DNA of 55,663 nucleotides, counting the filler, from Jimgerdemannia flammicorona (Eukaryota): assembly GCA_003990765.1 (NCBI GenBank). It is 3 parts of 3 records of this genome, joined end to end, with 100 filler letters (N's around TTAATTAATTAA, not from the genome) between each part and the next. Parts side by side here need not be neighbours in the genome. Positions count along the whole stretch, not along the records: positions 18,591 to 37,077 come from RBNJ01002201.1; positions 37,178 to 55,663 come from RBNJ01002202.1; 1 more part is not named here. One strand, written 5' to 3'. Below the pieces are notes generated by a model. It was not told where the DNA came from. It ran no database searches and saw nothing but the letters and a program-made list of their open reading frames with translations. Numbering within the stretch: the stretch's first letter is position 1; each line of letters starts with the position of its first letter. Below are positions 14,728 to 48,894 of this stretch, piece by piece. The translations under genes and the position numbers were made by a program.

Positions 14728-14757
14728 GCTGGGTCTCTTTTACAACATTTTTTCAAT

Positions 14758-22304: not shown

Positions 22305-25300
22305 TGAATCTCTCACTTTCAAGCTGAAAAATGAACAACCCCCACAACAACTACCCTGACTACAAGAGTCACCCCTGCAAGAATTCAAGATAAGATGGAA
22401 ATGCATCTCCCCACATTCTATGGATATACTACTGAAGAGTCAATCCTGACCTTCATTGAAGACTTTGAACAATTCGCTGCTATATGAGCTCTTGGTGTGG
22501 ATGCTCAATTGGCCCTTCTACCAGTCAGCCTCAGAGGATCTGCCAGAGACAAGTTCAATGTAGCCACCATTGCTGATGCTGGTACAGCCAAACTTATCAA
22601 CATGAAGGCCTTCCTCAGAACAATATATTATACTAAAGAGATCAAGCAAGCTCTCAAGGATCAACTCAATACTATCTGCCAGAGACTTAGTGAAGATCCC
22701 AACTCATTCTATATCTGAATCTGCCACCAGATTGTCTTGGCTGGCTATGATGACCACCTCAAGGAACAAATAGCAGATTCAACCTTCCTCAAAGGAGTTC
22801 ACTCTGAAATTGTCTTAGCAATCTGGTCTACCCCAGCTGCACTGACCCTTGATTAGAAAGTGGTCTTTGTACAGAGATATTAGACTGCCAGACACCCTGC
22901 TAAACACTCAATAGAGAAAATAACTGGCATCAAGATGGAGCCATCAAAGCTAACTAGTATCATACCTACCACAGTTGTAAACAGACAACCAACCCCACCT
23001 ACCCCTAAGACAGCCAAAGCTGGCCTAGTGGAGGAACTTGTCAAGTCATTTGCTGAGATGACTATATACCTTGGTGATGTTGTTAAAGAAGTCCAAAGCA
23101 CCAACAGGAGACTAGTGCAGAGATTTGCAGCTGCTACAGAAGAATGCAATATCACATGCTTCAGATATAGAGAAGAAGGCCACTATGCAAAGAATTATAT
23201 AACTGAAACAAGATGCAAAGCCCAACTAAACAATGCTAGCAGAACCAGAGAATAAACCAATGCAGTAGTTAATGAGGAGATTGGTGACACTGATGATGAA
23301 GAATACTATGAGGAGCTTGAATTCTACCCTGCTACTGAAGGTACCAGAACCTGGTCCAAGCCCTATGACAAGAAGAGCAACAACAAGCCAGTTGGAAGAC
23401 CAAAGAAGACCCCAGCTGTCACTATTCAAAGCAAGACTCAACCCAAGGAGATTGATCAAGATATGGAGTTAGATGAAGCTGCCCACCAAATCATTAAAGG
23501 CACTACTCCAGTCTCAGGAGAAAGTGAAAGCAAGAAGGAACAGAAGCTGCACAAGATCAAGATCCACCAGTATGATATCTACAAAGACCTCAAGGAACAG
23601 AAGGTCAATACTATCTTTGGATAGCTAGCTGAAGTCTCTGCCTTCAGACAGCAGTTGAGAGTAGGACTTGCAACTACTGCTAAGAATCAAGAGTATAAGA
23701 TTGTAGAAGCTCACAATGCACAGGAAGAATTCGAGAACTCAGGTGAAGAATCTGAAGACCAGTGCAAGATATCAGCCTATACTCCATATCAGATCAAAGA
23801 CTGTATCTTTGATGCTATCATTGATACTGATGCTGGAGGATGCCTCATGAGCAAGAAGGCAATTGACCGCCTAGGCTGGGACATTGAAGAGTCCACCAAG
23901 ATGGCCTATGTCACAGCAGATGGTACATGAGCTACCCCCCTTGGCAAAATCCAAGAAGTCCCCATCAAGATAGGAGAAGCTACCATTCTAGTATATATGA
24001 TTGTCACAAGTGCTACCAACTATGATATCCTCATTGGCAACCAATGACTTCACAAGGCCAAGGCCATCATTGACCTCAATACTCAGAAGATGCAGATCAA
24101 CTATAGAGAAAGAAAGGTACAAGTCTTTATCAATGTCTACAAAGGAGTTCTACCAGACATGGAGGAAGGAGATGAAGAGGACACAGAGGTCTTCATGCAC
24201 TTGGTGAACAAGAATAAGAACAAGAACAAGAATAAGACACCCAAGCTCACAGATGAGCAGTGGTACAACAAGATTATCAATGGCTATGCCCCTCAAGGAA
24301 GATGCCCCCATGGTACTAGGATGTACTGCTCTGAACACCTGAATGACTGCTGGTCCTGTATCAGTGAAGTCAGAAAAATCTGCCAACAGAAACATGAGTG
24401 AGAATTCACCAAAGCAAAAAGGAAAGCCAAAGAAGATGACCAGCTCCCAGAGCTTCAAGCTGACAGTGATGATGAGGAGGAATAAGAATCAGACATCACT
24501 CTCAAGGTCAAGAAGTTTCACCCTGAAGCCAAGATCCCAGAATACAAGACTGAAGGAGCCATAGGAATAGATCTTGCCAACATTCAAGATACTACTCTCA
24601 AACCACAGACCACTACCCTACTTGGCACTGGAATTGGAGTCAAGTTGCCAGAGAACTATGCCAGAATTATCAAGACTAGGAGCAGTCTGGCCAAAAGCAA
24701 AATCTCAGTTGAAGGAGGAGTAATTGACTCTGATTACACTGGCAAGATCTTCCTCATAGTCAGAAATCACAACCACACCACCCCCTTTGAAGTCAAGAAG
24801 CATGATAGGATTGGTCAGATGCTGATCCACGAAATCAAGAAGCTCAAGATCATAGAAGTCATCAAACTCATCAAGACCAAGAGAGGAGAACAAGGCTTTG
24901 GATCTACTGAAAGAGGAGCCTATGCTACCACAAGAAAGACAAGAACCAGAACAAGCACACCTATACTATTGGAGAAAACTTTCCCCTGGAGGAACAACTT
25001 CTCAAGATTCTGTATCAGAATGAGGAAGTACTTGCTATAGACTTCAGGGATATCCACAATCAAGAACCCAAGTACTACTATGAAGTTGACACTGGTGATA
25101 CCAAGCCCATCTACCAGAAAGCCAGACCCATACCACCTGTCTACAGAGAATGGCTGCAAGCAGAACTCAAGGAAATGGAAGAAGCTAGAATCATCAAGCA
25201 AGCTATCAGCCTCTGGGCCTCACTCATTGTCCTTGCTCTGAAGAAAGAAAGCAAGTCTGGAGAGTTTGTACCAAGACTCTGTATTGACTACAGGAAGCTC

Positions 25301-27600
25301 AATGCCATTACAAAGAAGGATAGGCAGCCCTTGCCAAATATTCAAAAAATCCTTACCACTCTTAAAAGTAAAGCCAAATACTACACCACCTTGGATCTGT
25401 TCTCAGGCTTCCATCAGATTGATCTCACTCAAGATGCCAGTGAGAAATTAGCCTTCATCACACCTGATACCACCTATATCTACCTGCAAATACTATTTGG
25501 AATGTGCAATGCCCCAGCAAGTTTTCAGCGAATGATGAACAAAGTCTTCAGCAATGAGATTGGAAAATAGCTCTTTGTCTATGTTGATGATGTGATCATC
25601 TTCAGCAACACTGCACAGGAACATGTCAATCACATACAGCTAGTCCTCAAGAAGCTCAAGGAGAATGGCCTCTACATCAAGCCCAAGAAATGCAAGTTTG
25701 CAGCTCAAGAAATTGCCTACCTAGGACACCTCATCAATCAGACCAGAATCCACATAGACCCTATGAAGATTGAGACTATTGCAGCCTATCCAAGACCCAG
25801 AACAACTACAGAAGTCCATGCCTTCCTTGGACTGGCCAGCTACTACAGAAGATTCATCAAAGGATATTCCAACATTGCAACACCTATCTACGAGCTACTG
25901 AAGAAGGAAACAAAATTCGAATAGACCAAAGAGCACCAAGAAATCTTCAATGAACTCGAGACCAGATTGACCCAAGCACCTATCCTCAGAAGACCAGACT
26001 GGAACCTAGAATTCATCCTGCAGACAGATGCAAGTGCTATAGAACTTGGAGCAGTCCTAGCTCAGAAGAAAGATGGACATGAATATGTCATCTCCTATAC
26101 AAGCCAAGGTATCTGTGGAGTAGAACAGAACTACAAGTCATGCAAGCTTGAATACTTAGCAGTAGTTTGGGCAGTAGACAAGTTCCACTACTACCTAGCT
26201 AGAAAACACTTCACCATTCAAACAGATCACTCTGCTCTTGCCTGGTTATTCTACACTCTGAACCCCAAAGGAATATATACCAGATAGATCTATAGACTGC
26301 AAGTGTATGACTATACTGTCAAGCACCACTCAGGAAAGACCAATATCAATGCTGATGCACTCTCAAGGACACTCTGAAATACCCTCATCAAGACCATTCA
26401 ACATGAATAAGGAGCTATACTATGGATTAATCAGCTATCTTGGGCAGCAGAAGATATCCAACCACCTCGAACCTTGGACAATTACTATTATCAACTGGAC
26501 TTGGAAACAGTTTGAATTAGACAACACTATACTCAGAAAAGGAGGAAAGCTAGTAATACCCAAACATAAGAAGTATCAAGTAATAAAGGAAGTATATGAA
26601 CAAGGATACTTAGGAGGAACCAACACATATGACAAAGTAAGAAGAACTATATGGTGGCCCAAGATAGAAGAAGACCTGTGCCAATTTGTCAAAGGGTGTG
26701 ACAAGTGTTAAAAACAGAAACAAGATCAGTAAGACCAGGCACCCAGGTTATCAAGAATTGAGCCTATCCCCTTCCACCATATTATAATGAATATCATTGG
26801 ACCACTACCAGTAATACTATCAGGAAACTACTATATTATAGTTATTGTAGATCTCATCACCAAATGGATAGATGCAGGAGCATTACAAGAAGCCAATGCC
26901 CTCTCTATAGCTGACTTCCTGCACCGAGAAATCATCTGCTGCTACAAGACACCAAAGCAAATCACAACAGACTGCAGCACAAAATTTGTCAATGGATTCC
27001 ATGAGATAATATATCAGAAATACAAGATCCAGCACATCAAGACCACTACGTACCACCCTCAAGGAAATAGACAGACAGAGAGAACCAATAAGACCCTCAA
27101 GAACATCCTAGTGAAGATCTCAGAGACATATGAGAATTGGGATAACTATTTACCAACCACCCTCTCTGTCCTATGAGATATACAGTCACAGAGCATACAC
27201 TTTACCCCAAGAGAGCTGCTCTTCAGAGAAGAAGATTCTAATAGAACCTCAGCTACAAATCTAGACCTAACTTGGAGATAGGTTGATGCAGAAATCCAGA
27301 GACTATACCAAATCAGGAAGAAGGCTGAAGATTACATCACCAAGTCACAAGTATTGATAAGAAAGAATGTGGAAAAGAATCACAAGGCCCTAGAATCCAT
27401 CTGAATCAGAGAAAAAGTTCTACTGTATTGAAATATGGTAGAAGCCTCATGGTTGCGAAAACTGGAACCCAAATAGGAAGGACCCTTCTATGTGTAAGAT
27501 ATCAAGGGAACTACCTTCTGGCTTAGAAAAATCTCAGGGACCATACTGCCTACCACAGTACATAGGAACAGACTCAAGAAGTACTATGAACCTATATAAG
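22305..27600 (+). pseudogene. Family B gag-pol: Gag(CCHC)-PR-GRCPH module-dUTPase-RT-RNaseH-IN
   Basis: LPTFYG, CFR(Y)REEGHYAKN(Y), AIIDT(D)AGG, RLCIDYRKLN, YVDD at about 25579, LQTDAS, IIGPLP, YHPQGN-QTERTN, KLEPK-EGPF. Confidence 0.93.
24500..24912 (+). pseudogene. dut: dUTPase domain of family B (between PR and RT)
   Basis: GIDLA, TRSSLAKSKISVEGGVIDSDYTGKI, DRIGQML, RGEQGFGST. Confidence 0.93.
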
Positions 27601-27963
27601 AGAAGCAAAACATGATGACCACCTGCGAGGTTCTAGTCCACAAATCATAACAGCATGTCCTGTGATCAGCAGGCTATCTGTCTGGACCATTCTCTAAGGG
27701 ATACAGTACTGGCAACTACTCATCCATGAGACTTTCAAAGTCAGAGGAGTTCGAACCATCAACTGATTGGTCAAGATCAGAATCAGGCCCTTGCTCTATA
27801 TGAAGAGAGTGACCCTTCACCATCTTGCCAAAATATAAAGAGAAGATGTCAGCCTATAAATACGACTTTTCGACCCCTTGCCAGAGGTTATGGGATCAGC
27901 AAATTTTTCAAGACTAGACCAATGAATAAGGATGCTCAGAAAGATCCTTATTCAGGAGGAAGA

Positions 27964-29542
27964 TGTAACAGTGACCCCAGAATGATGACATCAGCACAGA
28001 AGACAGCCTTTCCTTACAAGCCACCAGATTGGAGCACAAGAAGATCATATGGCATGTGAGATGAGCAATGATGACCAACTGTAAGTCACTGTGACCATAG
28101 TATGGTATCTTGAGGAATATAAAAGAAGGATTAAGGAACTGCAGTAATAGCAACCAACAAGACCAATCCCAAAATAGCCCAAAGACTTATCACAAACAAA
28201 ATATCTGCTGCTTGCTAAATCTCAAGGTCAAGGAACCACCAAGGTATCTCAGTTGAAGAAAGGATGTTCCAAGACATCAGAAGAGCTATGAGGACCCACT
28301 CAAGAAGGACTCCTAGTGTCAACCTGGGTACTAGTGACCCTTATCATTATATCCTCTATCACCATGAAATGGAAACAAGGATTACTATTGCTACTGAATG
28401 CCTCCAAATGTAGCAGGAGTATGAAATAAGAAACCTCCTCTACCAGGAGTTTCTATAAGCCAGTACTCAAGAGCTATAAGATGTCATCTCTATGGATATA
28501 CATGAAATGAGGATAGCTAAGAAGATCCATCAGATCTTCAGGCAGGCACCATGGTTGATTCCCAACTTAGAGTATGTTAGAGTCTTAGATTTCAGAGATC
28601 TATCATCCTGCCATATCAATATACTAGAAGCCAGGGTGGCTACAGAAGCCCAGTCTACTATCACTCTCAATAGTGATGAAGTAGAAGACTTGTGGCACCC
28701 CATCCTTCAAGACAACCCAGACCAATTTCTGCAAGGATTGATCTCAGTATTCCAAGGCCCAAGTATCCAGGTTAGATCTCTCCAAGACTCCATATTTGTT
28801 TCTTATTTTGTGGAAGAGAACCTCATAGATTGGAGAGCCCCTGATTTCCCTGCCGCTGAATGTGATGACATCATCAGCAATGATATCATCCCACATGACT
28901 TTGACATATGCGAGATGTGCAACTTGTATGAGATACCTGAAGCATGCAAAGTATGTGAAATGTGTGACCTACATGATGAATTCACAGACCTCATCTTCTT
29001 CAAAGATATCCTGACCTCTAATGATGAGAATGAAGCCCCCATGGTCTTGAACATTCTGCTCTAAGTCTCTTATTATACTGGATAATGTCAGCACTAGTAT
29101 TCTGAGGTGACACAGAATTGTTCCAGTACTGATATTTTGATGTAATATTAAATAATACCAGCACTGGTATTTTGATGTGATACCAAATTATACCAGCATC
29201 CTGAATCTGTACAACCATCAGTACTAACCCTGGAACTTAGTAGTTTTAGTTATTGGAATTTATATTTAGCTTTATATCTTAGCAACCATTAAATTATATT
29301 TTATATAAATATCTCACTTATTTCCTCTGAAATAAAGTCAGTCTTCTTAGTACAATATATACACTTTCTTACAAGTAATCTAAGAGATAACAAGATAGTT
29401 AAAGATTAGAAGTTTGAGGACTATAAGACCTTGGGAAGGTACTCTAACAAGAACTTACTTATAACAAACTTGAGTTAGTCTAAGAGATACACCTTGAAGA
29501 GAATCTGATATATTTGAAGGACTCAGCAACTACTATGTGACA
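27964..29542 (+). repeat. Family B 3' LTR (1579 bp)
   Basis: TGTAACAG…GTGACA, direct repeat of 20697-22274. Confidence 0.95.
28201..29064 (+). pseudogene. Second copy of the family B LTR-internal ORF
   Basis: 864 nt, ATG mutated to ATA. The 190-aa C-terminal part is still open (28492-29064). Confidence 0.75.
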
Positions 29543-31189
29543 ATAGCTATTTGAGGGCTATATAGTCAGTTATCAGTATGAACCTTTTTCTGATAAGATA
29601 ATGCTTGAACAGAGTGACTGCTCATATAACTGTAAGACATTTCAATTTGGTACTACTATAGTTCATCTTCTGCTAATTGGTAGCTTGACTTATATAAGCT
29701 ATTATATAGTATTGTTGGTCAGGTCCTTTTTGGACTAGAACTGCTCTCAGGCCATCTTTGGAGATATCTGTATACAAGATGAATGGCTTCTATAGATTGG
29801 GGTATATAAGAATTAGTACTATGGTCATGTAGTTCTTGAGTTCTTTGAAGACTTTTTCTTATGATTCTGTCTATTTATAAGGTACTTTTTTCTTGAGAAG
29901 AATTCAGATTAAGGTAGCAATTTGGGTAAAGTTCTTGATAAACCTTCTGTAGTAAGACACTAACATCAGAAATAATAGAGTTTTCTTTAGGATCTTGGAT
30001 ACTAGTCAATTGTTGATCTTCTCAGTTTTCTTTGGGTCTGCATGAATTTCTTTTTTTGAAACTATGAATCCAAGAAATTCAAGTTTCTATTTTCCAAAGT
30101 AGTATTTCTTAGCATTGAGTCTCAGGTGGTTCTTGTGAGTGAGCTTAAAGAATTCTTCTAGATAGTGTAGGTGTTCTTCAAAATTTACTGAATAGATATT
30201 AGAATCATCTATGTATATATACAATTAGATAGTAGTGGATCAGGTGGGCATAAACTGAATTTATCATTTTTTGGAAGATGGGAGGTGCATTGTAAAGTTC
30301 AAAAGATATTTGGAGATATTCAAATAGTTTTTCTAGAGTAAGAAAGGCTGTCTTCTGAATGTCTTTGGGATCTATGGAGATCTCATGGAATTCTGCAAAA
30401 AGGTCTATACTGCTGAAGTATCTGGTATCTTATAGCTGATTCAAAAGATCATCAATTTTGAGCAAAGGATAGATGTTCTTTTTAGTTACTGAATTAAGTT
30501 TTCTGTAGTCTATGTAGAGTCTCCATTCTCCTTTCTTTGGTACTATAAGTATAGGGCTAGCCCAGGGGCTAGTTGAGGGTCAGATGACTCTATTGTCCAA
30601 GAACTCTTAAATGTGCTCTTTTTTGAATATCTTCAAGTGATGAGATATTTTATAGAGTTTCTATCAGATGGGTATTGTATTTTCTATATTTATACTATGG
30701 TGATATAATGGATTGTATAACCGGTTGCCATAGTCTGTAGTGAAGATATCTTGATATTTGTTAAGAGTTCTACTAGTTGCTATTACAGAGATGTCAATTC
30801 TTCACTGTCTTCTGGGTCACAGAGGGGCCTTTCCTTTCTTCTGGGACCTTTTGCTATTTTCTGATATGTTTAGCTCATAGATTCTCTGTGGGTTTGGTTG
30901 AGAAAGGATATTAAATGTTCTATGATAGTTCCTTTTGACAAGATGATGGTTTCCCAACTTTGGTTAGTTGTTCAGGAGTGTACTGGATTCATCTTATTAG
31001 GGAATATATATCCTTCTATATCCAGACTCAGGATATCTTCATTGGGCTCAAAGAAGAGATTTCTGGGGTCAGGTGGTGTAAAGATTTCGACAAAATGAGA
31101 TTCTTGTACAGTTTGACTAACTGGTGGTATACTTGCTGGAGAATATTCCTCTTGAGATGGTTGACTTGAAGAAGATGTACTTCCTTCTT

Positions 31190-31580
31190 ATCTGAGCTTC
31201 CAAATCCTTTGGCTTATCTTATTCCTTCAGTTATTTCAGAGATTTCTTACAGTTGTGGGGTCTTGACCTTCATGAAGACTGCTTGGGTAATCTTCTGTCT
31301 TCTTATAATTTGATGCTATTCTATACTACTATTGCATAGGATAACCTTGATTTCGCCTATATATTCTGAATCAATAGTTCCACCTTTTATAGTTATTTCT
31401 TATCTGGCAAGTCCAGACCTTGAGGTCAGTTGAATGTAAGTTCCTTGGGGTGGCTGCATGATTAGTCTAGTTCTGATCATCAGTGTTTTTCCAGACTTCA
31501 TGGGTTCATCATCCAGACTGTAGAGATCATACCCTATATCCTCTTAGTGAGCTTGATTGGGGGTTTGGCCTTGGGATGTA
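31190..31580 (-). pseudogene. dut: dUTPase domain of family A copy 2
   Basis: Reverse-complement homolog of 5237-5633. Confidence 0.88.
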
Positions 31581-34500
31581 GTAGAGCATATTGGGCAATA
31601 TCCTTACTGAGTTCAGGCTGTCCTTGAACTGAAGCTCTACTAGCAGAAAGTCTCCAGGTCTTAGGATTGAGGTGTAGCCATCTGGCTCCAGTAGAGGGAT
31701 CTCAGAGATAATTTATTTCTCTTTTTTCTATAGGGTCTAAGGCTTCCATGAAGTTGGTGGCATCTTTTACCCATTCTTAGTAGATTGCATATCTGATGAA
31801 AGCTAGGATGTTTTCTTCTAAATCATCGATCTTGAGAGTCCTTCTTTCTGGCTTCTTGGTCTAACTTTTTTAGATCTGGTCTCTATTATCTCCTCTCTTC
31901 AAGGTGTAGATTATAACATCATAACTGAGATGAATCTTCTGATGTCTGCAGTCTCAGCAGTCTGAGTGTCTTCTATGGTTGCAATATTCTATTGCTCAGA
32001 AATGCTGTTCCCAGTTATTGATCTCTTGTTATTTCAGGAATTAGTATCTATCTTGGTTATAAGTTGGGAGAAGAGTAGACAGAGGATATACTTCTGTTTA
32101 GGTAAAGAGACCTTATCCTCTAAATTGGCTTTGCAACTTAGTAGTAACTTCTTAGAAGGTAGTTGACTGTATAACTGTAGTTGGGAGTTCTAATCTTCAG
32201 GGTCTCTGTCTTTCTTATTGGTCCAGTAAATGGCACTAATAGCAGTAATCTCAGAGAGAGTGGAAGACTATTTGATGTGGATATCTTCCCAGTCAAAAGG
32301 CTCTTTCTTGATGAGTTTCTTGCTTTAAAATAATAGAGATTGTGCTGAGTCCTTCTTCAATATTCCAGGGGTCATTATCTTCAGGTAGTGTCCAATGAGG
32401 GTCATCCCAGGGAATGAGTTCAGAGACTTCTTCTTCTTTCAGTACTTTTTGTTTAGGAACCTCCTATTCAGGGGTTTCTTATTCCTCAGATAACTCTTGA
32501 CCCCAAATTACTTATACTTCTGCAGCTTTGGCTATAGGTGTCTCTGGAATATGTCTGTATTTCTTCTTCTTTCTTCTATACTCAGGGCAGACTATGCCAG
32601 ATGAATTCCTTGTCCCAATGATCTTGGAGGAGTGCTCAGGGCACTTATATCTCTTGTGGCAGGTGGGGCATCCTTTAATTTCTCCTACAATGGCTCCAAT
32701 GGTGATAGAGATAATATTCTTAGCCCACACATTGTCTTCTGGCCTATAATCCACTAGGTTGATTCAGAGGTTGAGTCTGGGATCATTTCTATCTTCAGAT
32801 TCTTCTTCCTCTTCTGTAGTAGACTCTTTACTGCTGGTATATTCTTCTTAAATAGTGATCTTCTTCTTCTTCTTCAATTGCTCATAGCTAGTTATCTTAA
32901 CTCTATACTTTTTGCCTCAGTAGTCAAACTTGAGTACTTGTTGATCAATATCAATAACTGCATTCATTTCCTTCATCCAGTTGGTACCAAGGATCATGTT
33001 ATAAGTGATAGCTTTAGTGACAATAGCTTTCAGAATAGAGAACTGAATATATCTGAGAGAGATAGTGATGTTTTATACTTTTCCAAAGAGTTGAGTTCAG
33101 GCTCCATCTGCTACTATAATGCTGAGATTGGATGGTCCATCAATGAGCCATTAGAGAATATTCAGGAATCATCTAGTAATAACACAGATAGCTACTCCTG
33201 TATCTATGAGAATTTTTACCTTTTGTCCTCTAATATCTTTATATAAATAGGCACTAATATGTATATCTCTCTATAGCCTGGATAGAGATGGGAGCTAGCT
33301 CTTGCTGTAGGATTGGAACTTGGCTGGTGCTAGACCTAGTGGTTCTCAGTAATTTGTTTTAGACTCCAGCTGGTATCAGTTGCAGGAATTATAGAAGAGA
33401 GACTTCTATCTTGACTTCTTGAATCTTCTACCAGGCTTCATTATAGATATATCTGGGTATGGTCTTTGGGATATACTTCTTCTTGGGCTTTAGGGCAGTA
33501 GGCTTTCATTCTTTTTGTTCTATTTCTTCATCCTCTGGGGGCAGCTCATTTGTCTTGGAAACAAAAGATGAGAGAATTTGGAGAGATGTTTCTACTTACT
33601 CCTCTTCATGTTCTTCCTCTTCTTTCTGAACAATTCTTCTGCTGATATTTCTGAATGGCCTTCCTATAGATCTCTTTCTTTTCTCTACTAGATAAACTGT
33701 CTTTTGGGTAGTGACTTTAGCTAGGTACAGGTCTAGATCACTGTAGTATTCACTGTTGTTTTTTTCTTTAAAATCTTCAATAGAATGGGCTTTAGTCTTC
33801 TTGTACTAGGTTTCATTCCTTCAGTTTGGTTGTTCTGAGTCCCTTTGGTCACTTCTGTTGTTACATTCAGTGGTATAGTGTCCAAATTGTCTACAGTAAA
33901 AGTATTGGACTTGGGCTCTATCTCAAACAGAATATCTTTTTTCTTCTTACTAGTAGTTTCTGTTATCTCTTAGTGAATAACCTTGGTTCCTCTATAGTGG
34001 GTATCCTCTGTTGTCTTGATAACTCTGATTTTCATATGTAGTAAGATTTTCAATCTGTCCAACCAATCAGTCCAACTTGGAACTAAGGTCTTGAATTTCA
34101 CTCTTATCCTTCTTTTCTTCTTTGGCTGGTCTTCTTTCTTTAGATCTCTCCTATCCTTAAAGGAGTCCTTATAGAGCTTTGACTAGGATGTCTTCTTTAT
34201 CATCCTTCTTGTCATAGTCACTCTAGGTAGTTCCTTGTCTGATATTAAAGAATCTATGGGCTATATATACTTACTCTTCAGACCTTCTGATACCTAGAGT
34301 ACAGATATGCTGGGCAATATTTAGGATAATTCTATTCATAAAGATCATTAGATCTATAATATCTTGATTGGTGGAATTGAACCTAACTATATGCATTCTT
34401 TTCTAAATTCTTGTGAAGAATGCTCTGGGCAATTCTCTAAGATTCATCTTCATCTCTATGATAGATTCTTGAACCTTATTGTGGGTTTCATTTCCTGTAT

Positions 34501-35329: not shown

Positions 35330-35331
35330 AA

Positions 35332-37177: not shown

Positions 37178-37431
37178 AAAAAAAAAACTAAGCTGGTCTT
37201 AGTTTCTTGAACTTCCTGAAATATGGAAAATCCTGAACATCTAGAACTAGTCTGAAAAAGGACTTTGGTTGAGATGTCAACCCAATCTAGAAATCAATAA
37301 GCATAGAGGATGTACTCCATATAAAATTGATCCTGACCTTAAGAAAACAGTCTTCCAGAATATCCAGAACTTCCAGAAAACTCTTCCAGAACTATGTAAC
37401 AGTTACCCTAAAAAACAACCCTCTTATAACT

Positions 37432-37446
37432 TGGTAGCAGTAGTTT
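37432..37446 (+). promoter_or_regulatory. Family C primer binding site (TGGTAGC, tRNA-Met-like)
   Basis: TGGTAGCAGTAGTTT 3 nt after the LTR end. Copy 2 has TGGTAC-ATAGCAGCAGTTT at 51308-51326 (minus strand). Confidence 0.65.
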
Positions 37447-39451
37447 ACAATCCAATTCCACTTCAAGATACTTCCTCACCCCCACTATAAACCTCTCTGA
37501 GAATTCCTATAAGTTGGTATAAAGCCCAACCTCTGAACTGAAATTAATCCTGAACTATCTGACAATTTAGAGAGAATCGAACCTAATGTATAAGGATAAT
37601 TTGACCTCTATATCTGCAATAAGTGAGACAAACTTCATTCAAAGAAAGAAATACTCCAGTTAAATTAGCAAATAGGTGAAACCCTATTCACTGAACTCTT
37701 TGCTCTATACTCAGCAAGTCAAGACAAAGAAGGTCTTATTGAAGCCTTCTTTACTCTCCTCAATAAGAGTTTTGTCAGCTCCACAAATCCGAGTGACCTA
37801 GGATAACTATCAGTAGTCTTTCTAGTCTTAGTCCCTCACAAAGCCCAAGCCTCTATAGCTAAGTGGCTCAACTCTACCGACTTTCACCATACCAGAACCA
37901 AGATCATGTTATACTACCAATTCTAGAACAGTAAGGCCCACCATATTCTTAAAGAAGAAGCAAGAGAAACCCTTCATCAACTACCTGATCTCAAACCAGA
38001 AGCAGGCCCTACTATAGCTCTACCTGAACCTGAAACCAATACTGAACCAGAACTTGACTTTGAATTAAGTTCATCCAAAATTAGATATACAACTAATTCT
38101 GTCTACTTTGATACTGAGCAAACCCAATTACATGGGGACCAAACTGAAGAGAAGGAGGAGTATCTCAGTGAATTTGATCCCAGATACACCACTGAAGGAG
38201 ACACACCTCCATCAGGATGAAACACACCTATACAGTAATAAACAGCTATCTATTGAGCCCTTACTCCAGACCCACAACTACTACTCCAGCAACTTACACA
38301 GACCCAAAGAACCCCATCACACTCTATACTAGTACCTTAAGTAGTACCAGTAACACTACTACTAGCAGTCCAACCACCTCCAGTAAATAACATGGCAAAC
38401 TAACAGATTCTAGACCTCATAATCCAGATAGCAATAATGGCAGCCACTATCACTGCCTTAGCTGAACAGATCTGACCTATCAAAAATCTGAGCCTACCTA
38501 CTTTCAATGGTACTGCACAAGAAGTCCAAAGCTTTATTAGTATAGTTGATACTAACTTTGAAGCCAATTAATGGACCAATGAGCAAGTTGCTGACCACCT
38601 TCTGATAAACAATCAAGACCACACTCTGGGACAACTCTTTGCTATCACAACAGCCTATATTTGCTGAGTTGTTATATTCTTCCAAGGACCTGCCGAAGAA
38701 TGGTGGCAAACTCTTCCTGAAAACCCCCTCACATAGGACACCCAACCTGCAGTAGTTGCTCAAAATGCAGCAAACAATGCCCCAGGATATAAAGCCCATC
38801 CTGTAGCCCCTGGACTCAAACAACTTATGATTGCTCAATACTGTAGCAAAACCATGATTACCAAATCTCGAGTAAAACTCTGCAATCTCAAATTTGATGT
38901 ATATGGTAAAGAAGAATTTGAAACCTTCTGTATAAAACTTAAGTCACTTCTGAACACTATTGGCCTAGAATATATTGCCAATGACAAAGCATGAAATAGT
39001 ACAAAAGCAGACTGTCTATTTGATGTACTGTCTGAATGGCTTACTAGAAAAATCTGAGAACAAGATCACCCAGTTGGTTGTGATCACCAACAATGGTGTC
39101 TAGTAAGAATCAAGACTATGATCAAGCGAATCCTAATAGCTGGACTAATTCTGCCCCAAAGACAATTCAACAATAAGGAAAAGACTTGGACCAAGAAAGA
39201 AGAACCCAAGCATGAAGCATCCTGAGCTCCCTCCACATCTACCTCATGGACACCCAGAAATCATAAATCCACCCAGTCAAGTATCTTCAAGAAACTCACT
39301 GAAGGAGAAAGGAATGAACTTTGAAGAAGCAGAGTATACTTCTATTACTGAAAGACAGGACACATGACCAGTGCCTGCCCCAACTGAAAACTCCGAACAG
39401 CAACATAAGCAACTGTTACTACTCTGCACCACCTCAATAATCTGACTACCA

Positions 39452-39862
39452 GAATACTGGACTTTGTCAAGTTAAGGCAAACTACCAAGGCCCCAACCAA
39501 AGGAAGTCAAAAAGCAGCTAGATATGACCTATATGCAGCTGAAGAAGCTACAGTTTCTAATCAAGAAGTTAAGCAAGTCTATACAGAAATCAGTATCCAA
39601 ATCCCTGAAAGACATATTGGAAGGATATGCTGTCACAGTAGCCTAGCATTAAAAGGACTCTCAGTAGAAGGAGGAGTTATTGACAAGGATTATATAGGCG
39701 AAATTATTGTCCTCATCCAAAACCATAGTTGGACACCCTTCAAAATCTCCATTGGTTTCTGCATTATACAGATCCTATTCAATAAAATCAAGTCAACCCT
39801 GATAGTCAAGGAAGTTCCTGAACTACTGCCCACCATCTGAGGATCCAAAGAATTTGGCTCAT
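39452..39862 (+). pseudogene. dut: dUTPase domain of family C, between Gag CCHC and protease
   Basis: AA(R)YDLYAAE, (H)SSLALKGLSVEGGVIDKDYIGEI, (*)GSKEFGSS. In frame with the CCHC knuckle and upstream of DSGAS. Confidence 0.92.
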
Positions 39863-42744
39863 CAAACAAGGCTCCAGCCCAATCTACCATGAACAAAGAA
39901 GAATAATTCTACAAGAAAATCAAAGACAGATATATACCAAGTGGCTGATACCCCCATGGCATTGGAATGTACTCTTCCCAAATAATTAATGATTGCTTCT
40001 TTTGTGTCAATGAACTGGCTCAAAAAAGAACCAATAGAAGGAAAGATCCTATAACTGAAATCACTACCATTGGATTAGACAAACTGCTTACACTTCAAGC
40101 TTTTGTCAACTGAGCACCTGTCAAGATTATGATAGACAGTGGTGCCTCAGACAACTTTATTAATGAAGAAACAGCCAACAGACTCAAGGTCTTCATCTCT
40201 CTGGTATAACAAACTCAAGCAGTTGCTACAGCTGATGGAACCTTACATGTTATTAGCAAGGAAGTCTGCAATCTGCCCTTCTGAATTGGTAACTACCGAG
40301 TATATGTTACTCTCCAGATTGTACCACTTCCTGATAATGAAATCATCCTTGGGACTCTATAATTAAAATAAGAGAACCCTATAATCGATTGGGTAAACCA
40401 TTCCCTGACCTTCAAGAAAGGATGCCACAATTTCAAACTGCAAGGTGAAAAAGACCCACTCAGCTCTAGTAATCCTAGACCAAAGATCACTCACATCAAT
40501 AAGTTACAGCTCAAGAAATTGGCCAAAAAATGCCCTCTCTTTGCCATCTCCATCTGCCTATCCAAAGGAGAACCTGAGAACTCTGAAGAAGACTTTTCCA
40601 AAGTTGACAGCCATATCAGACCCCTACTTCAGAAATTTTGAGACATATTCCCAAAGAAACTTCTGAAAGACCTATCTCCTAAACAAGTAGTAGACCATGC
40701 CATCAAGACTATTCCAGATACCAAGCCAGCCTTCAAGTCAATCTACTATATGTCTCTGAGAAAATTGATGCACTCAAGAAGAAAATTGATGAGCTCCTAG
40801 AACAAGGCTTCATCAGATCTAGTATATCACCCTATAGTGCACCAGTTCTCTTTGTTATCAAGAAAGGAGAAGACCTGCGAATGTGCATTGATTACCATGA
40901 CCTCAATAAACAGACTATCAAGAACTGTTACCCACTACCCAGAATTGATGAAATATTCGATAGGCTTACCAACCCACAATTTATAAACTCTTTTGACCTA
41001 TGAAATAAGTACTGGCAAATTGCCATAAAAGAAGAAGATATCTACAAGACAGCCTTCTGAACTCACTATAGACATTTTGAATTCCTGGTTATGTCCTTTG
41101 GCTTAACTAATACTCTTGCAACCTTCCAGACCCTGATGAATACTATCCTGTACCTATATCTGGACAAATTCATTATTGTCTACATTGATGACATCCTAGT
41201 CTTCAGCAAAACCCTGGAGGAACACCTCAAACATCTTGAACTAGTACTACTGAAACTCTGAGAAAACCAACTCTTTACAAAACTCAGCAAGTCTGAATTC
41301 CTTCTGAAGGAAATTCAATTCCTTGGACATATTGTCATACCAAATAGAATCAAAGTGGACTCCAGCAAAATCTCCACAATTAAGGATTGGCCCAGACTTA
41401 AGAAGCTGAAAGACCTCTAGTCATTCCTGGGATTAGCAAACTATTACAGGCGATTTGTTGCCAACTTCACTAAAATCACTACTGCCCTCACTCAAATGAC
41501 TAAGTATAGTAAGAAAGAAGAACAGCCCTGGACCATGAAACAAGAAAAAGACTTCAACAATCTTGCAAATTGGGGATCTGAACAAGATACAGCCTTTCAA
41601 GCACTGAAGGATGCCTTGATAACCACTCTAGTACTTTAAGTGGCAAACTCTACCCTATCATATAAAGTTACTACTAATGCCTCTAATCTAGCCCTTGGAG
41701 CAGTACTCATGCAAGAAGGACACCCTGTGGCCTATCACTCTCGCAAGTTCAATGATGCCAAAATTAACTATGCAATCCATGAGAAGGAAATGCTAGCTAT
41801 TGTAGATACTTTGATCAAATGGTGATTATATCTAGAAGGAGCACACTTCACTATATTGATTAACTACAAGTCATTAGTCAATATCAAGACACAGGCTACT
41901 CTTTCTCAAAAGCAAGTCAGATGGATGAAAGTCCTTACCAACTTTGACTATAAAATCCAGTATTGCTCTAGTAAAGAAAATATTATTGCCGATGCAATCT
42001 TCAGACCACCCATTGACAAAGTTATCCAAACTCTCACCTTGGTTACTAATACTATCATAGAACAAATTATTGCAGCATGTGCTGATGATAAGAAAGCTCA
42101 AGCACTCTGAGAAATTCTGAGCAGTGACAATGCTGACAAGTATATCTGGTACAACCAATACCAACTGAAAGACAATACTATCTACTACAAAGACAGACTG
42201 TATATCCCAAACAACTGAGACCTCCGAAGGACTATCCTATTCAAATGTCATAATGCCCCTATAGCTAGACATTTGGTATTTGACAAATACTATGAAGTTA
42301 TCTCCTGGAACTTCTATTGGCCCCATATAGCAGATCAGCTAAAGATCTACATCACTTCTTGTAATGCCTACCAATGGAACAAGTCCTCAACACTAGCAAA
42401 ACCTGGCTTACTCTATCCTATTCCAGTACTATCTGATAATTAGGAACAAATCTCTATGGATTTCATTATATAACTACCCCAAACCAAGAATGGGAAGGAT
42501 GCAATTGTTGTCTTTGTAGACTATCTCAGTAAACAAGCCCACTTTGTGCCAACTACTACTACTGCAACAGTATCAGACATAGCCACACTCTTGTTTGACA
42601 ATATCTTTCACTATCATGGTCTTCCTAAGATCATTGTTAGTGACCGAGATCCAAAATTCACCAGCTATTTTTGGAAAGCCCTCCATGCATACCTTGAAAC
42701 AAAACTTGCACTATCTACAGCCTTTCATCCTGAAACTGATGGCC

Positions 42745-44809
42745 TGTAAGAGGGTTGCTTTTTAGGGTAACTGTTATGTAGTTCTGGAAGGGTTTTCTGG
42801 AAGTTCTAGATGTTCTGAAAGACCGTTTTCTTATGGTCAAGATCAATTTCATATAGAGTACGTCCTCTACGCTTATTGATTTCAAGTTCAGGTTGATGTC
42901 TTAATCAAAGTCCTTTTTTGGACTAGTTCTGGATGTTCAGGATTTTCATATTTCAGGAAGTTTAAGAAACTAAGACCAGCTTAGTTGAATTGGTATATCG
43001 CTGCAGACAATACCCAATTAGGAAATTTCGTGATGGGGTTAGAAGTGGGATCTAATGAAGAGTGGATTTACTTAAGAGTGGTTTGTGGATTATTAAATAG
43101 GTTTAATTGCTATTTATAATATTGCTATACTAAGAGTAGTTGTGTGAAGGGATATTGTGGGGAAGTGCTCAGGAGTTGTGTTCAGATTGTTTAAGTCTGA
43201 GATTCTGAGGTCTGGGGGAGGGGGTATTTATACTAGTGAGGGGCTATCTGGACTATGCTAAATATAGATATAGTACTTAGTGCCTTGCTGAGTCAGAATG
43301 TAGTCATATAGTACAAGTGTGATCTGACATGTCAAGAGATCATTTGGCTGCTGTATCAGTTCACAGTTATGTCATATAAGGCTAATCTAACTATACTATA
43401 ACTGCTAGGCTATTTATAGATTTAGATGCTATCTGGGTAGTCTTCAATGATATCACTATCGATTGCATTATCTCTGATAAAGTAGTCATCTAGGAAGAGT
43501 GGTTCATGGATTACTTCTCCTTGTTTGCTGAGATAACAATATATTAGAACTTCATCACCATCTCACAGGATAGCATTGTCTGTCTCATATACTGGATAAG
43601 GTGTTGGTGGGTAAAGGAGTAGTATATCGTCTTTGTTTTCATCAGTTTCGCTATCTGCATACCTTCTATAAGTTATAGCACTATGAGTTGCAGGGTTGTA
43701 GTAAGCTGACAGCTATGGTTCGTATCACTCATACTCAGATAGTAGAGTGGTTGGTTCAATCTCAAGGGTTGTCTAAAGGTACAGATTGTGTTCTCTGGTC
43801 TCTTCATTATAGTTGAAGTAATCAGGAGTAAATGTGGGTTGGTATTCATGCCAATGGTCATTGTCCCAATAGGTCTCATATGCTGTTATAAATTGTTGTA
43901 AGTTCATTGACAAGGTTGGTGGTGTGATCAGGGTTGGCAGAGATCCTTAGCTTGAGGTCATGTTGGCATCAGAGGAATCATTGTCTTCTGCTTTATCTTC
44001 ATCAAATTGGATTATGTCATAGACATCCTTCATAGCATATCTGACTTGAGGCATTTGCAGGATATGGTCATCAGAGTGTGAGAAGGTTCTGTCTGTGGTC
44101 TGGACATATTCTAGGTACTTGTGGTTGAGTTCTTATATCATGTCATCGATTTGGCCATAGGATAGGGTAGCAACCATTTCACTGGTAGTAACTCAGAGGT
44201 AGAGAATAAAGGTGCTGTACTCATAAAAGAGTTCTTTGTGTTTGCAGGCAATGAGCTTCCGGTGTTGAGACATCTGGGTAATATCTGTATCATAGTGGTG
44301 TTCAACCATATCTTTCAGGAGGTGGCTGATCTAGTAGTAGCTTGAGATTTGTCCAATTCAGTGGGCCTTGTTAAGCATGTTCAGGATGTTCCATTGAGCT
44401 TCCACAAAGTAGAGGGATGCTAGGCTATGGATATTTATGAGGGGCAGAGGGGGTGTGGCTTGGTTGATAATGGTATTCCAAATATCAGTACAGATGTGGT
44501 TGTAGATCTTGATGGTCATATTTGTATATGTTCAGAAGTTGTAGTTATTGTTTGTTTTGGTTCTCTGTTTTGATGTGTCTTGATGCTTGGTATATATACA
44601 TTTGGTCATGATTGATAAGATTCTGTTTGTATGAATCTTGTGTTCCATGACTTCATGTTGACTCAGCTTTGTGCACTGTGACTTTAGTTTGACTCAGCTT
44701 CATAATTAAGCAGATGATTTCCAGATTTGTTCAGAGGTCGTGTGTGATTTTGGTGGCTTATTCAGAGGGTGATGTGTGATTTCAGTAGCTTGGAGGTTGT
44801 ATACTTACA
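42745..44809 (-). repeat. Family C copy 2 3' LTR (2065 bp)
   Basis: Direct repeat of 51330-53177. TATAAATA at 43225-43232 (minus strand). Confidence 0.95.
43422..44519 (-). pseudogene. Family C LTR-internal (U3) accessory ORF (365 aa)
   Basis: 1098 nt from ATG to TAA. Consensus of three LTR copies is open apart from one shared TGA (likely CGA): MTTKIYNHICADIWNAIVNQ…QISSYYQIGHLLED…KLIACKHRELFYKYSTFIPCL…DSDIIEDYPDSI. Confidence 0.75.
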
Positions 44810-45249
44810 ACTCTCCCCTTCTTAGCTTTCGATATCCTCATCAGGGCCTTCTAATTTTGTTCTAGTGTTGTTACACCGATTGAGAGATCAAAAGTCTAGT
44901 GAAGTCCATTTTTTCAGAAAGTGGCATGCTCATAGTACAGTTGCCTAACATATTGGATTCACATGTTAAAGGGTCATGTATTCAATACTGTGTGCTGGAA
45001 GTGATTCTGACATCATTCACTGCTGGAGAATTTCCTCTAAGAAATCTTCTTAAATATCTATGCCTTGTTTTCCACCAGTAGTATGGAGAGAATAGGCTTG
45101 CTTTCAGTTTTGCTATTTTTCTAGAGGGTTGGTATTCTTGTCTTATTTTGTTGAGTTCTTGATTTTGTTTGTGATAATTATAATATTCAGGAGGGTGATA
45201 TATAGTATGTACTGATAGGTATCAGAATATTCAGATTTCAGTTGTTCAA

Positions 45250-45410
45250 GAAATCATATTCCTGAACTAAGTTAGTAGCATTCTGGAGGTTGGTCTTGGG
45301 TTCCCATGTGGCATCATGGATCATGTAATCTTTTCATTTGACAAGGTACTCAGGGTAGTTCTTGTTTCCACATTTGTTGAGGATTTGTTCAACTTCGTAC
45401 TCTTCTTGGT
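45250..45410 (-). pseudogene. Chromodomain at integrase C-terminus (copy 2)
   Basis: EEYEVEQILNK…EYLVK(W)KDY…DATWEPKTNLQNA. Confidence 0.9.
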
Positions 45411-48400
45411 CATTAATTATGATAGATACAGGTGGTTTGATGGTCTAGTTGGGGAATAGCTTGTTGTCATTGTCATTGTATCACTTGAGACATTGAACAT
45501 TAAAGACTGGGTAGACCTTAATGGTATCTGGTAACACCAATTTGTAGGAAGTAGGAGAGACTTGTGCGATGACTTTAAATAGTCCAATGAACTTGCTGTT
45601 CAGCTTTGTAGATGGTCTGTACTTGAGGTTATCAACTCAGTATCCTCAGATGTCCAGTAGAACTTTTTCTCCAATATCAAAGGTTTCTTCTTGGTGGTGT
45701 TGGTTAATATACTGTAACTGTTGTTCTTGAGCTTGCAATAAATTCTCAATTGCAATCTGGCTCAGATTGTGCATTTGGAGCAGGCATTCTTCAACAGCTT
45801 CAACTGTAGAGAGTTCTTCAGTAGTTCAGATGAGTGTTAAAGGGGTGTTTGGGTTTTGTTCTGTATTAGCGAAGAATGGAGTCATTCTAAGAGAGGCTTT
45901 CTTGCTGTTGTTGTAAGCAAACTCAACTGCAGTGAGGTGTTCATGCCAATTATCTTGTCTGTAGAAGATATAGTTTCTTAGCATTTGTTCCAGAGTTTGG
46001 TTCATTCTTTTGGTTTGGCCATCCATTTCTGAGTGAAAGGCTGTGAATAGTGTAAGTTTCATTCCAAGGTATGCATGGAGGGCTTTCCAAAAATGGCTGG
46101 TGAATTTTGGGTCTCAGTCACTAACAATGATCTTCAGAAGACCATAATAGCAGAAATATTGTCAAACAAGAGTGTGGCTATGTCTAGTGCTGTTGCAGTG
46201 GTGGTGGTTGGTACAAAGTGGGCTTGTTTACTGAGATAGTCTACAAAGACAATAATTGCATCTTTCCCATTCTTGGTTTGGGATAGTTATATAATGAAGT
46301 CCATAGAGATTTGTTCCCAATTAGCGGATGGTACTGGGATAGGGTGGAGTAGGCCAGGTTTTGCTAGTGTTGAGGACTTGTTTCATTGGTAGGCATCACA
46401 GGAAGTGATGTAGGTCTTGAGCTAATCTGCCATGTGGGGCCAATAGAAGTTTTGGGAAATAACTTCATAGTATTTGTCAAATCCTAAATGTCCAGCTGTA
46501 GGGGCATCATGCCATTCAAATAGGATAGTTCTTTGGAGGTCTCAGTTGTTTGGGATATATAGTCTGTTCTTGTAGTAGATAGTATTGTCTTTGAGTTGAT
46601 ATTAATAGTACTGAGTATACTTGTCAGCATCATTACTATTCAGAATTTCTCGGAGTGCTTGAGCTTCTTTATTATCAGCACATGCTGTGATAATTTGTTC
46701 CATGATAGAGTTTGTAACCAAGGTGAGAGTTTGGATAACTTCTTCAATGGGTGGTCTGGAGATTGTATCAGTAACAATGTTTTCCTTGCCAGAGTGATAC
46801 TGGATTTTATTGTCAAAGTTGGTGAGGACTTTCATCCATCTGGCTTGCTTTCGAGAAAGGATAGCCTGGGTCTTGATGTTGACTAATGACTTGTGGTCAG
46901 TCAATACAGTGAAGTGTACTCTTTCTAGATATAGTTGCCATTTGATCAGAGTATCTATGATGGCTAGCATTTCCTTCTTATGAGTTACATAGTTGATTTC
47001 GACATCATTGAACTTGTGGGAATAATAGGTGACTGGGTGTCCTTCTTGCATAAGCACTGCTCCAAGAGCTAGGTCAGAGGCATCAGTAGTGACTTCATAT
47101 AGTAGGGCAGAATTTGCTGCTTAAAGTACTGGAGTGATTATCAAGGCATCCTTTAGTACTTGAAAGGCAGTATCTTGCTTGGGTCTCCAATTTACAAGAT
47201 TGTTGAAGTCTTTCTCTTATTTTGTGGTCCAGGGTTATTCTTCTTTCTTGCTATGCTTGGTTATTTGGGTAAGAGCAGTAGCGATTTTGGCAAAGTTGGT
47301 AACAAATTGCCTGTAATAGTTTGCTAATCCCAGAAATGACTAGAGGTCTTTCAGCTTCTTGGATCTAGGCCAATCTTTGATTGCAGAGATTTTGCTGGGG
47401 TCCACTTTGATTCTATTCAGTGTAATAATGTGTCCAAGGAATTGAATTTCTTTCAGGAGGAATTCACACTTGCTGAGTTTTGCAAAGAGTTGGTTTTCTC
47501 GGAGTTTCAGTAGTACTAGTTCAAGGTGTTCCAGATGTTCCTCCAGGGTTTTACTGAAGACTAGAATGTTGTCAATATAGACAACAATGAATTTGTCCAG
47601 ATATGGGTGCAGGATAGTATTCATTAGTATCTGAAAGGTTGCAGGAGCATTAGTTAAGCCAAAGGGCATAACCAGGAACTCGAAGTGTCCATAGTGGGTT
47701 TGGAAGGCTGTCTTGTAGATGTCTTTTTCTTTCATAGCAATTTGCCAGTAACTATTTCACAGGTCAAAGGAGCTCATAAATTGTGGGTTGGTAAGCCTAT
47801 CGAATATTTCATCAATCCTGGGTAGTGGGCAACAGTTCTTAATGGTCTGTTCATTAAGGTCTTGGTAATCAATGTACATTCACAGGTCTCCTCCTTTCTT
47901 GACAACAAATAGGATCAGTGCACCATAGGGTAATACATTCGGTCTGATGAATCCTTGTTCTAGGAGCTCATCAATTTCTTTCTTAAGTGCATTGATTTCT
48001 CTCAGAGACATATGGTAGATTGACTTGAAGGCTGGCTTGGCATCTGGGATGGTCTTGATTGCATGGTCTACTGCTCATTTAGGAGGTAGGTCTTTCAGAA
48101 GCTTCTTGGGAAATATGTCTCAGAATTTCTGGAGTAGTGGTCTGACATGGCTCTCAACTTTGGAAAAGTCTTCTTCAGAGTTCTCAGGTTTTCCTTTGGA
48201 TGGGCAGATGGAGATGGCAAAAAGAGGGCATTTCTTGGCCAATTTCTTGAGTTGTAGCTTGTTTATGTGGGTGATCTTTGGTCCAGGATCACTAGAACTA
48301 AGTGGGTTCTTTTCACCTTGCAGTTTGAAGTTATGGCATCCTTTCTTGATGGTCAGAAAATGGTTTATCCAATCGATCATAGGGTTCTCTTATTTCAACC

Positions 48401-48894
48401 ATGGGGTTCCAAGAATGATCTTGTTGTCAGGAAGTGGTACAATTTGGAGGGTAACATGTACTTGGTAGTCACCAATTTGGAAGGGCAGATTGCAGACTTC
48501 CTTGCTAATGACAAGGAGGTTCCATTAGCTGTGGCAACTGCTTAAGTTTGTTGTACTGGAGAGGTGAAGACCTTAAGTCTGTTGGCTGTTTCTTCATTGA
48601 TAAAGTTGCCTGAGGCACTACTGTCTATCATAATCTTAACAGGTGCTCAGTTGACAAAAGCTTGAAGTGTAAGCAGTTTGTCTGATCCAATGGTGGTGAT
48701 TTTGGTTGTAGGGGCTTTCCTTTTATTGGTTCTTCTTTGAGCCAGTTCATTGACACAAGAGAAGCAATTATCAATCATTTGTGAATTGTACATTCTAATG
48801 TCATGGGGGCATCAGCCACTTGGTACATATCCATCTTCAATTTTCTTGTAGAATTGTTCTTCTTTGTTCATGGTAGGTTGGGCTGGGGCTTTGT

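What the first reader, a model, noticed from the sequence alone, without database searches (positions are those of the whole stretch)
24250..48870. Shared ~40-aa GRCPH zinc module flanking dUTPase on opposite sides in families B and C
Seen: B (24250-24370) DEQWYNKIINGYAPQGRCPHGTRMYCSEHLNDCWSCISE. C consensus (39895-40015; 48750-48870 minus) EEQFYKKIEDGYVPSG(R)CPHGIRMYSSQMIDDCFSCVNE. The order is PR-module-dUTPase-RT in B and NC-dUTPase-module-PR in C. C-x-H-x12-C-x2-C is not the retroviral CCHC knuckle or the IN HHCC. Inference: an undescribed Zn-binding module that moves with, or works with, the dUTPase and has been shuffled between lineages.
Basis: partly seen in the sequence, partly recalled or inferred. 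Interest (0 to 1): 0.75.

Follow-up and report, generated by a model that had tools for sequence, protein, structure and literature searches.

The report
Unnamed zinc finger beside retrotransposon dUTPase
Several distantly related gypsy-type jumping genes of a fungus-like genome carry the same small, unnamed cysteine/histidine domain between their protease and their dUTP-destroying enzyme, in either order; it is probably a new little zinc finger that travels with that enzyme, a real but modest addition to known retrotransposon parts.

Summary
A ~41-aa C-P-H-x12-C-x2-C module lies in a non-chromo gypsy (B: protease-module-dUTPase-RT) and a chromovirus (C: NC-dUTPase-module-protease); B and C are 20/40 identical. 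The genome holds at least 1,579 motif copies (control 1) in five lineages. It is under purifying selection between lineages and gives a confident helix-hairpin-helix-helix model (pLDDT 87). No significant Pfam, NCBIfam, PDB or fold match was found. dUTPases of module-bearing lineages group apart from module-less family D and the host-like gene, against the RT tree (AU p=0.004), so parts were exchanged long ago. The coupling is not strict. Family D has dUTPase without the module. Family A has only a probable shortened finger ~240 aa upstream. Three outside relatives (P0003, P0007, L091) have no adjacent dUTPase. In both orders the module lies between protease and dUTPase. Best reading: a one-zinc CHCC mini-domain left fused to dUTPase after processing, acting as a protein-binding adaptor; zinc binding and function are untested. 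dUTPase-bearing fungal gypsies with variable dUTPase position, and an extra knuckle beside dUTPase (rotifer Juno), are published. This scan noted the same module at least six times elsewhere in this genome.

The parts
23157..23198 (+). Family B gag CCHC knuckle, decayed
   Evidence: complete in natural copy L061
23790..24130 (+). Family B aspartic protease (catalytic motif at 23823), broken by stops; ends approximate
24237..24398 (+). CPH-x12-CxxC module, family B1 (no stop inside)
   Evidence: (HMM of A3, E 7e-32), model
24501..24911 (+). Family B dUTPase
   Evidence: PF00692 E 2.8e-28
25202..25800 (+). Family B reverse transcriptase (YVDD at 25580), broken; ends approximate
39337..39378 (+). 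Family C (plus copy) gag knuckle, decayed
39466..39861 (+). Family C (plus copy) dUTPase; start approximate
   Evidence: PF00692 E 8e-26
39886..40041 (+). Module, family C1 plus copy, decayed (two stops, first Cys lost)
   Evidence: E 4e-22
40120..40400 (+). Family C (plus copy) protease (DSG at 40135); ends approximate
49382..49423 (-). Family C (minus copy) CCHC knuckle
48899..49294 (-). Family C (minus copy) dUTPase, broken by stops; start approximate
48719..48877 (-). Module, family C1 minus copy (one stop before the first Cys)
   Evidence: E 5e-26
48350..48650 (-). Family C (minus copy) protease (catalytic position at 48625); ends approximate
4562..4618 (+). Family A probable short variant (CPH-x10-CxxC in better-kept copies), decayed here
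32233..32289 (-). Family A second copy of the probable short variant, decayed
5254..5627 (+). Family A dUTPase (frameshifted here)
   Evidence: PF00692 E 3.7e-28 in natural copy L169

Best explanation
The module is an autonomously folding ~45-aa domain that binds one zinc through C-x-H and C-x2-C (knuckle, short hairpin, short helix, then a helix carrying the CxxC; treble-clef-like in layout). It is an accessory part of the Gag-Pol polyprotein of several Ty3/gypsy lineages, placed between protease and dUTPase. The protease probably cuts it free on the protease side and leaves it tethered to the dUTPase by a hydrophilic linker in either order. The mature product would then be a zinc-finger-dUTPase fusion, with the neutral-to-acidic finger binding a protein partner (capsid, RT or a host factor) and keeping the dUTPase where reverse transcription happens. 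Shown: sequence, order, selection, dUTPase/RT tree conflict, lack of family match. Predicted: the fold. Inferred: zinc binding, cleavage pattern, adaptor role, partner.
For: Four ligand positions are kept across 17 lineage representatives: Cys 17/17, His 16/17, Cys 15/17, Cys 17/17 (rows located with a pattern that fixes the first and last Cys). The extra Cys/His of B alternate with Ser/Met (10/7 and 9/8) and sit at or in a predicted helix start, so they are probably not ligands. Five AlphaFold2 models score pLDDT 84-87. Between lineages pS is 0.51-0.84 and pN 0.19-0.36. 12 of 15 database relatives have dUTPase in the same protein, 10 with the module after it and 2 before it. dUTPases of module-bearing lineages (with family A) group at 85/95 apart from D and the host-like L114. 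Holding C1+C2+D dUTPases together is rejected (p-AU 0.004) although their RTs group at 98/99. A hydrophobic-x-x-hydrophobic site, like the P2/P2' Val/Ile pattern stated for Ty1 protease in PMC6952103, is in 0 of 8 dUTPase-to-module linkers, 4 of 5 module-to-protease linkers, 3 of 4 protease-to-module linkers (B) and 1 of 3 module-to-dUTPase linkers (B). Net charge of the 41-aa core is -4 to +1, unlike basic nucleocapsids. Precedent for a finger kept on a dUTPase: betaretroviral NC-dUTPase (PMC4531489).
Against: Three relatives have the module with no adjacent dUTPase (P0003, P0007, L091). Family D runs dUTPase straight into protease in 25 of 30 top dUTPase loci, so the enzyme does without it. 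Family A has only a weakly matching short variant about 240 aa upstream of its dUTPase (5.7 bits; hhalign 72%). The cleavage pattern was chosen after seeing the sequences, comes from a copia-type protease, and the short linkers would seldom hold such a site even when shuffled (0-9%). The 85/95 group is not a starred branch. The module tree is unresolved (1 of 13 inner branches starred; AU 0.195). P0001, P0002 and P0006 are near-copies of this genome's own families and may not be independent.
Confidence: 0.42

Rival explanations
1. The module is an independent small accessory zinc-finger protein. It is one of several Cys/His modules that these elements collect in the permissive slot beside the protease, is released by the protease and acts on its own (for example on a host defence or chromatin factor). 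Its closeness to dUTPase reflects shared history, not function.
For: It occurs without adjacent dUTPase, with other Cys clusters, in P0003 and L091. L091 also carries a CxxC-x5-C...CxxC-x6-C motif that matches family A's accessory region. Family A holds three Cys/His modules between protease and dUTPase. D lacks it.
Against: 12 of 15 database relatives keep it within about 11-45 aa of a dUTPase, on either side, and no candidate cleavage site separates it from the dUTPase in 8 of 8 C-type linkers.
Confidence: 0.33
2. It is a nucleic-acid-binding finger that anchors the dUTPase to the RNA/DNA template, as NC does in betaretroviral NC-dUTPase.
For: Functional precedent in PMC4531489; conserved aromatic residues and glycines; basic residues flank the core in several lineages.
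Against: The core is neutral to acidic (-4 to +1) and does not have the CCHC spacing; the elements already carry a gag knuckle.
Confidence: 0.13
3. It regulates the protease (timing of dimerisation or self-release) as a folded spacer; the dUTPase is incidental.
For: It lies on the protease-facing side of the dUTPase in both orders.
Against: Distance to the protease catalytic Asp varies from about 60 to 160 aa and switches side. Proteases of B and C are only 22-24% identical while their modules are 44-59% identical. Candidate cleavage sites separate it from the protease.
Confidence: 0.08

Closest known systems
dUTPase-bearing fungal Ty3/gypsy elements (PosPlaTy3-3, -4, -5 of Postia placenta; Phanerochaete and Tuber Tmt1 elements), PMC2864245
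   Same: Gypsy elements with a dUTPase whose position varies between families (N-terminus of Pol, between protease and RT, C-terminus); apparently acquired from different sources (passages).
   Different: The passages seen name only CCHC and HHCC fingers; no extra Cys/His domain beside the dUTPase. Supplements not read.
Juno LTR retrotransposons of bdelloid rotifers, PMC5408684
   Same: dUTPase between protease and RT with an extra zinc knuckle next to it (section 3.1).
   Different: There the knuckle follows the dUTPase, upstream of RT, and is called a Zn knuckle (spacing not given for it in the section read); here the motif is C-x-H-x12-C-x2-C on the protease side. Juno sequences were not compared.
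Betaretroviral NC-dUTPase fusion (MMTV p30, MPMV), PMC4531489
   Same: A zinc-finger part stays fused to a trimeric dUTPase and is thought to place it at the site of DNA synthesis; order NC-dUTPase-protease as in family C.
   Different: That finger is the basic CCHC nucleocapsid itself; here it is a separate, non-basic domain found on either end of the enzyme.
Treble-clef / RING-type second zinc site (C-x-H ... C-x2-C); resemblance recalled
   Same: Ligand order and knuckle-to-helix layout of the model; faint Pfam hits of single members to RING models (E 0.0023 for P0007; E 0.049).
   Different: No first zinc site; hits are below the curated cut-off (18.7 vs 27.4 bits); no Foldseek or VIA match.

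Membership tests
Ty3/gypsy LTR retrotransposon (host elements B, C) | Order protease-RT-RNase H-integrase | tested here: met
Ty3/gypsy LTR retrotransposon (host elements B, C) | Paired LTRs, PBS, PPT | not tested
   termini were not analysed
Chromovirus (family C) | Chromodomain at the integrase C-terminus | tested here: met
   PF00385 E 1.2e-17 in C copy L065; no chromo hit in the B integrase ORF of L064
Trimeric dUTPase PF00692 | Profile match over the cut-off, with conserved motifs | tested here: met
Trimeric dUTPase PF00692 | dUTP hydrolysis | not testable with these tools
   needs assay
Retroviral CCHC knuckle (zf-CCHC) | C-x2-C-x4-H-x4-C spacing | tested here: not met
   module spacing is C-x-H-x12-C-x2-C; zf-CCHC hits only the gag knuckle
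Integrase HHCC (Integrase_H2C2) | H-x3-7-H-x23-32-C-x2-C at the integrase N-terminus | tested here: not met
   only one His before the CxxC pair, a Cys in first place, and a separate integrase zinc domain exists
RING / AN1 binuclear fingers | Eight ligands in cross-brace | tested here: not met
   four conserved ligands; positions +8 and +11 alternate C/S and H/M
Treble-clef fold group | Structural match to a solved member | tested here: inconclusive
   no Foldseek E<=0.001; best VIA Z 3.4; small models are weak queries; ligand geometry of the model could not be read
Zinc finger (any) | Binds zinc through the conserved Cys/His | not testable with these tools
   inferred from conservation only

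The most novel reading that the evidence does not exclude
A new small zinc-finger fold that acts as a portable tag for retroelement dUTPases. It works from either terminus, spread with one dUTPase clade across chromovirus and non-chromo gypsy lineages by circular permutation, and also exists in free-standing Cys-rich accessory proteins, so that it would be the first dedicated targeting or regulatory domain for a retrotransposon dUTPase.
Probability: 0.25. Interest if true: 0.6.

Novelty: new variant of a known kind. Interest (0 to 1): 0.36.

Why it matters
Why some retrotransposons keep a dUTPase is open (PMC2864245 calls its role unclear). A conserved finger that stays beside one dUTPase clade in two orders gives a small, testable handle on how the enzyme is delivered or controlled, may be a new mini-fold, and documents old exchange of accessory parts between distant gypsy lineages. 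Its range looks narrow (15 database proteins), which limits the impact.

Tried and rejected
Complex prediction of dUTPase trimer + module + Zn: no verdict (score 0.01, alignments not used); no evidence either way. Fold searches of the pLDDT-87 model: none at E<=0.001 in PDB or BFVD, best VIA Z 3.4 among 48,161 chains; this does not show the fold is new. PDB sequence search with the profile: 4 hits, best E 0.34. ESM Atlas: nothing at 0.9 or more. PHROG phrog_29887 matched 2 of 11 members (best E 0.0011) and the genome's module copies only at E 0.013 or worse; its members could not be seen, so it stays a weak lead. Phage tblastn: 6 chance-level hits. Prokaryote genomes: 0 of 3 candidates. Viral contigs: 1 of 82 candidates (L094, mostly the seed motif) and 0 of 22. 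Dropped as chance: 5 of 14 phmmer hits (P0011-P0014, P0016: repeat proteins) and L093. An L091-type family or a host-gene copy in the own genome was not found with three queries or among 7 atypical hits checked, all B-type; only 100 of the 1,579 pattern hits were listed, so this is not absence. Search for longer relatives of L091: none of 360 candidates. Within-family dN/dS was set aside because copies were picked for protein likeness. The first fold on 5 sequences was poor (pLDDT 66). No RNA holder listed. Seven literature searches listed no paper describing this motif; subscription papers and supplements were not seen.
Full report
What the window is. The window is three assembly contigs joined by N runs from a 231-Mb repeat-rich eukaryotic genome, filled with decayed retroelements. 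A single-locus dUTPase among cellular-looking genes (L114/L196) and mostly soil sequencing runs fit a soil fungus; the organism was not identified. Three Ty3/gypsy families with dUTPase are present: A (about 2900-7800 +, 29500-34000 -), B (about 22500-27600 +) and C (about 38400-42700 +, 45800-50400 -). C is a chromovirus (chromodomain E 1.2e-17); the B integrase ORF examined has no chromodomain. The two C copies differ by 194 transitions and 15 transversions over 1,837 nt.

Observation. The B module reads as quoted. B and C are 20/40 identical. Each search scored 150 of about 4,800 candidates; of the 30 loci fetched per family, 30 B loci have module then dUTPase and 30 C loci dUTPase then module. 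A natural B copy keeps gag, protease, module, dUTPase, RT and RNase H in one 1,399-aa frame, so the module is part of the polyprotein. A DNA pattern for C-P-H-G-x9..12-C-x2-C has 1,579 matches against 1 for the control. Following these gave three B-order lineages (B1-B3) and two C-order lineages (C1, C2) in the genome.

It is a real domain. Between lineages synonymous sites are near saturation (pS 0.51-0.84) while pN is 0.19-0.36, so it is old and under purifying selection. It stands out from variable linkers. B-to-C identity is 44-59% for the 41-aa module, against 39-44% for RT, 34-44% for dUTPase and 22-24% for protease. In 17 representatives the four candidate ligands are kept 17, 16, 15 and 17 times, with invariant Pro and Met and conserved aromatic and Gly residues; the extra Cys and His of B alternate with Ser and Met. 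AlphaFold2 on 11 sequences gives pLDDT 87.4, pTM 0.64: helix 7-15, a short hairpin around the C-P-H-G knuckle, helix 33-38, helix 40-54 starting at the CxxC. That layout recalls a one-zinc treble clef (my recall, not a test). No significant Pfam, NCBIfam, PDB or fold match was found; the best were a sub-threshold RING hit for P0007 and phrog_29887 at E 0.0011.

Is it tied to dUTPase? Mostly, not strictly. Three protein searches with the module gave 15 relatives (5 of the 14 phmmer hits dropped as repeats). Twelve have dUTPase in the same protein, ten before the module and two after it; P0001, P0002 and P0006 are near-copies of this genome's families. P0015 is an uninformative fragment. P0003 (157 aa) and P0007 (82 aa) have none, nor has metagenome contig L091 in its 1,122 nt; L092 has the C order. 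In P0003 and L091 the module is followed by a W-C-x-C-x2-C cluster, and in L091 also by a Cys motif found in family A's accessory region. Whether these belong to elements with a dUTPase further away is unknown. Conversely, of the 30 best dUTPase loci of the genome, 25 read dUTPase straight into protease (family D), 1 was C1, 1 the host-like gene, and 3 could not be read by the pattern; only the C1 locus has the module. Family A has GRCPH-x10-C-x2-C about 240 aa upstream of its dUTPase, intact in 13 of 25 loci; it scores 5.7 bits against a maximum of 4.4 in 1,000 shuffles and 72% in hhalign, so it is a probable, not certain, shortened relative lacking the first helix.

History. RTs of C1, C2 and D group at 98/99, apart from B and A. 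dUTPases do not follow: A, B, C and the outside module-bearing ones group at 85/95 (unstarred) apart from D and the host-like gene, rooted on three phage enzymes. Forcing C1+C2+D together is rejected at p-AU 0.004. So dUTPases moved between lineages, or D replaced its own; direction is not determined. The module tree is unresolved. Protease-module-dUTPase and dUTPase-module-protease cannot be interconverted by one insertion of a fixed cassette; a tandem duplication with loss (circular permutation) or two separate captures is needed (inference).

How it probably works. In both orders the module faces the protease side of the dUTPase. A hydrophobic-x-x-hydrophobic site of the kind stated for Ty1 protease (P2 and P2' mainly Val/Ile; PMC6952103, passages) is present in 4 of 5 module-to-protease linkers, 3 of 4 protease-to-module linkers, 1 of 3 B module-to-dUTPase linkers and 0 of 8 C dUTPase-to-module linkers. 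The last linkers are short and nearly free of hydrophobic residues, so the absence is not statistically striking, and the pattern was chosen after looking. Taken at face value the product is a finger-dUTPase fusion, like betaretroviral NC-dUTPase, which is proposed to hold the enzyme where RT works (PMC4531489, passages and section 9). The core is neutral to acidic (-4 to +1), which favours a protein partner over nucleic acid. I give this 0.42; an independent released accessory finger 0.33; a nucleic-acid anchor 0.13; a protease regulator 0.08.

What is known. dUTPase in fungal gypsy elements, at varying positions and from different sources, is published (PMC2864245, passages; PMC6431247, passages). 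An extra zinc knuckle next to the dUTPase is published for rotifer Juno (PMC5408684, passages and section 3.1). PMC3248453 has no mention of dUTPase or fingers in its main text. Seven searches listed no description of this motif; supplements and subscription papers were not seen, and Repbase/GyDB could not be searched. Contigs of 4 of 4 public runs from four studies cover all 30 bins of the B region at 85% or more, none spanning it, so family B is not an assembly artefact. This scan has noted the same module at least six times in other pieces of this genome; those notes are not independent evidence.

Verdict. Real, selected, unnamed small Cys/His domain of narrow range; probably a one-zinc finger; usually but not always beside one clade of retroelement dUTPases. 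New variant of a known kind of element. Interest 0.36.

Noticed in passing
window 4181-4300 (+) and 32560-32670 (-); L144-L169: Family A carries a C-x2-C-x5-C-x2-H ... C-x2-C-x6-C motif with a basic run, recalling a permuted fungal Zn2Cys6 cluster (recall); a related motif is in L091 downstream of the CPH module.
   Followed up: partly
window 4865-4915 (+) and 31935-31986 (-); L169: A further C-x-H-x5-C-x2-C-x-H cluster and an unnamed ~110-aa domain lie between the short finger and the dUTPase in family A; no Pfam hit there.
   Followed up: no
L091:100-270 and 900-1090: A Trp-rich ~55-aa domain appears to occur twice, on both sides of the Cys modules; not found in the own genome or in longer proteins.
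   Followed up: partly
L094:5818-6120: A 100-aa ORF of a prokaryotic-virus contig ends in helix + GRCPHG-x4-C-x2-C; hhalign 92% over 23 columns, but it was picked by that very motif, so possibly chance.
   Followed up: partly
L114 / L196: Single-locus, eukaryote-type dUTPase among cellular-looking genes, with no module; probably the host gene, with a few odd residues in conserved motifs.
   Followed up: partly
L115-L143: Family D: chromovirus-like RT with NC-dUTPase-protease order and a host-type dUTPase signature, so this genome's gypsies hold at least two separately acquired dUTPases.
   Followed up: yes
window 38407-40243 vs 48517-50353: Copies differ by 194 transitions and 15 transversions, with only 5 CpG in 1,837 nt: methylation- or RIP-like decay.
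   Followed up: no
window ~8000-18300: Two decayed non-LTR (LINE-type) elements with AFADD RT motifs at 12023 and 16868.
   Followed up: no
L066: A C copy in which the frame jumps from just after the protease to the chromodomain region, apparently an internally deleted derivative that keeps gag, dUTPase, module and protease.
   Followed up: no
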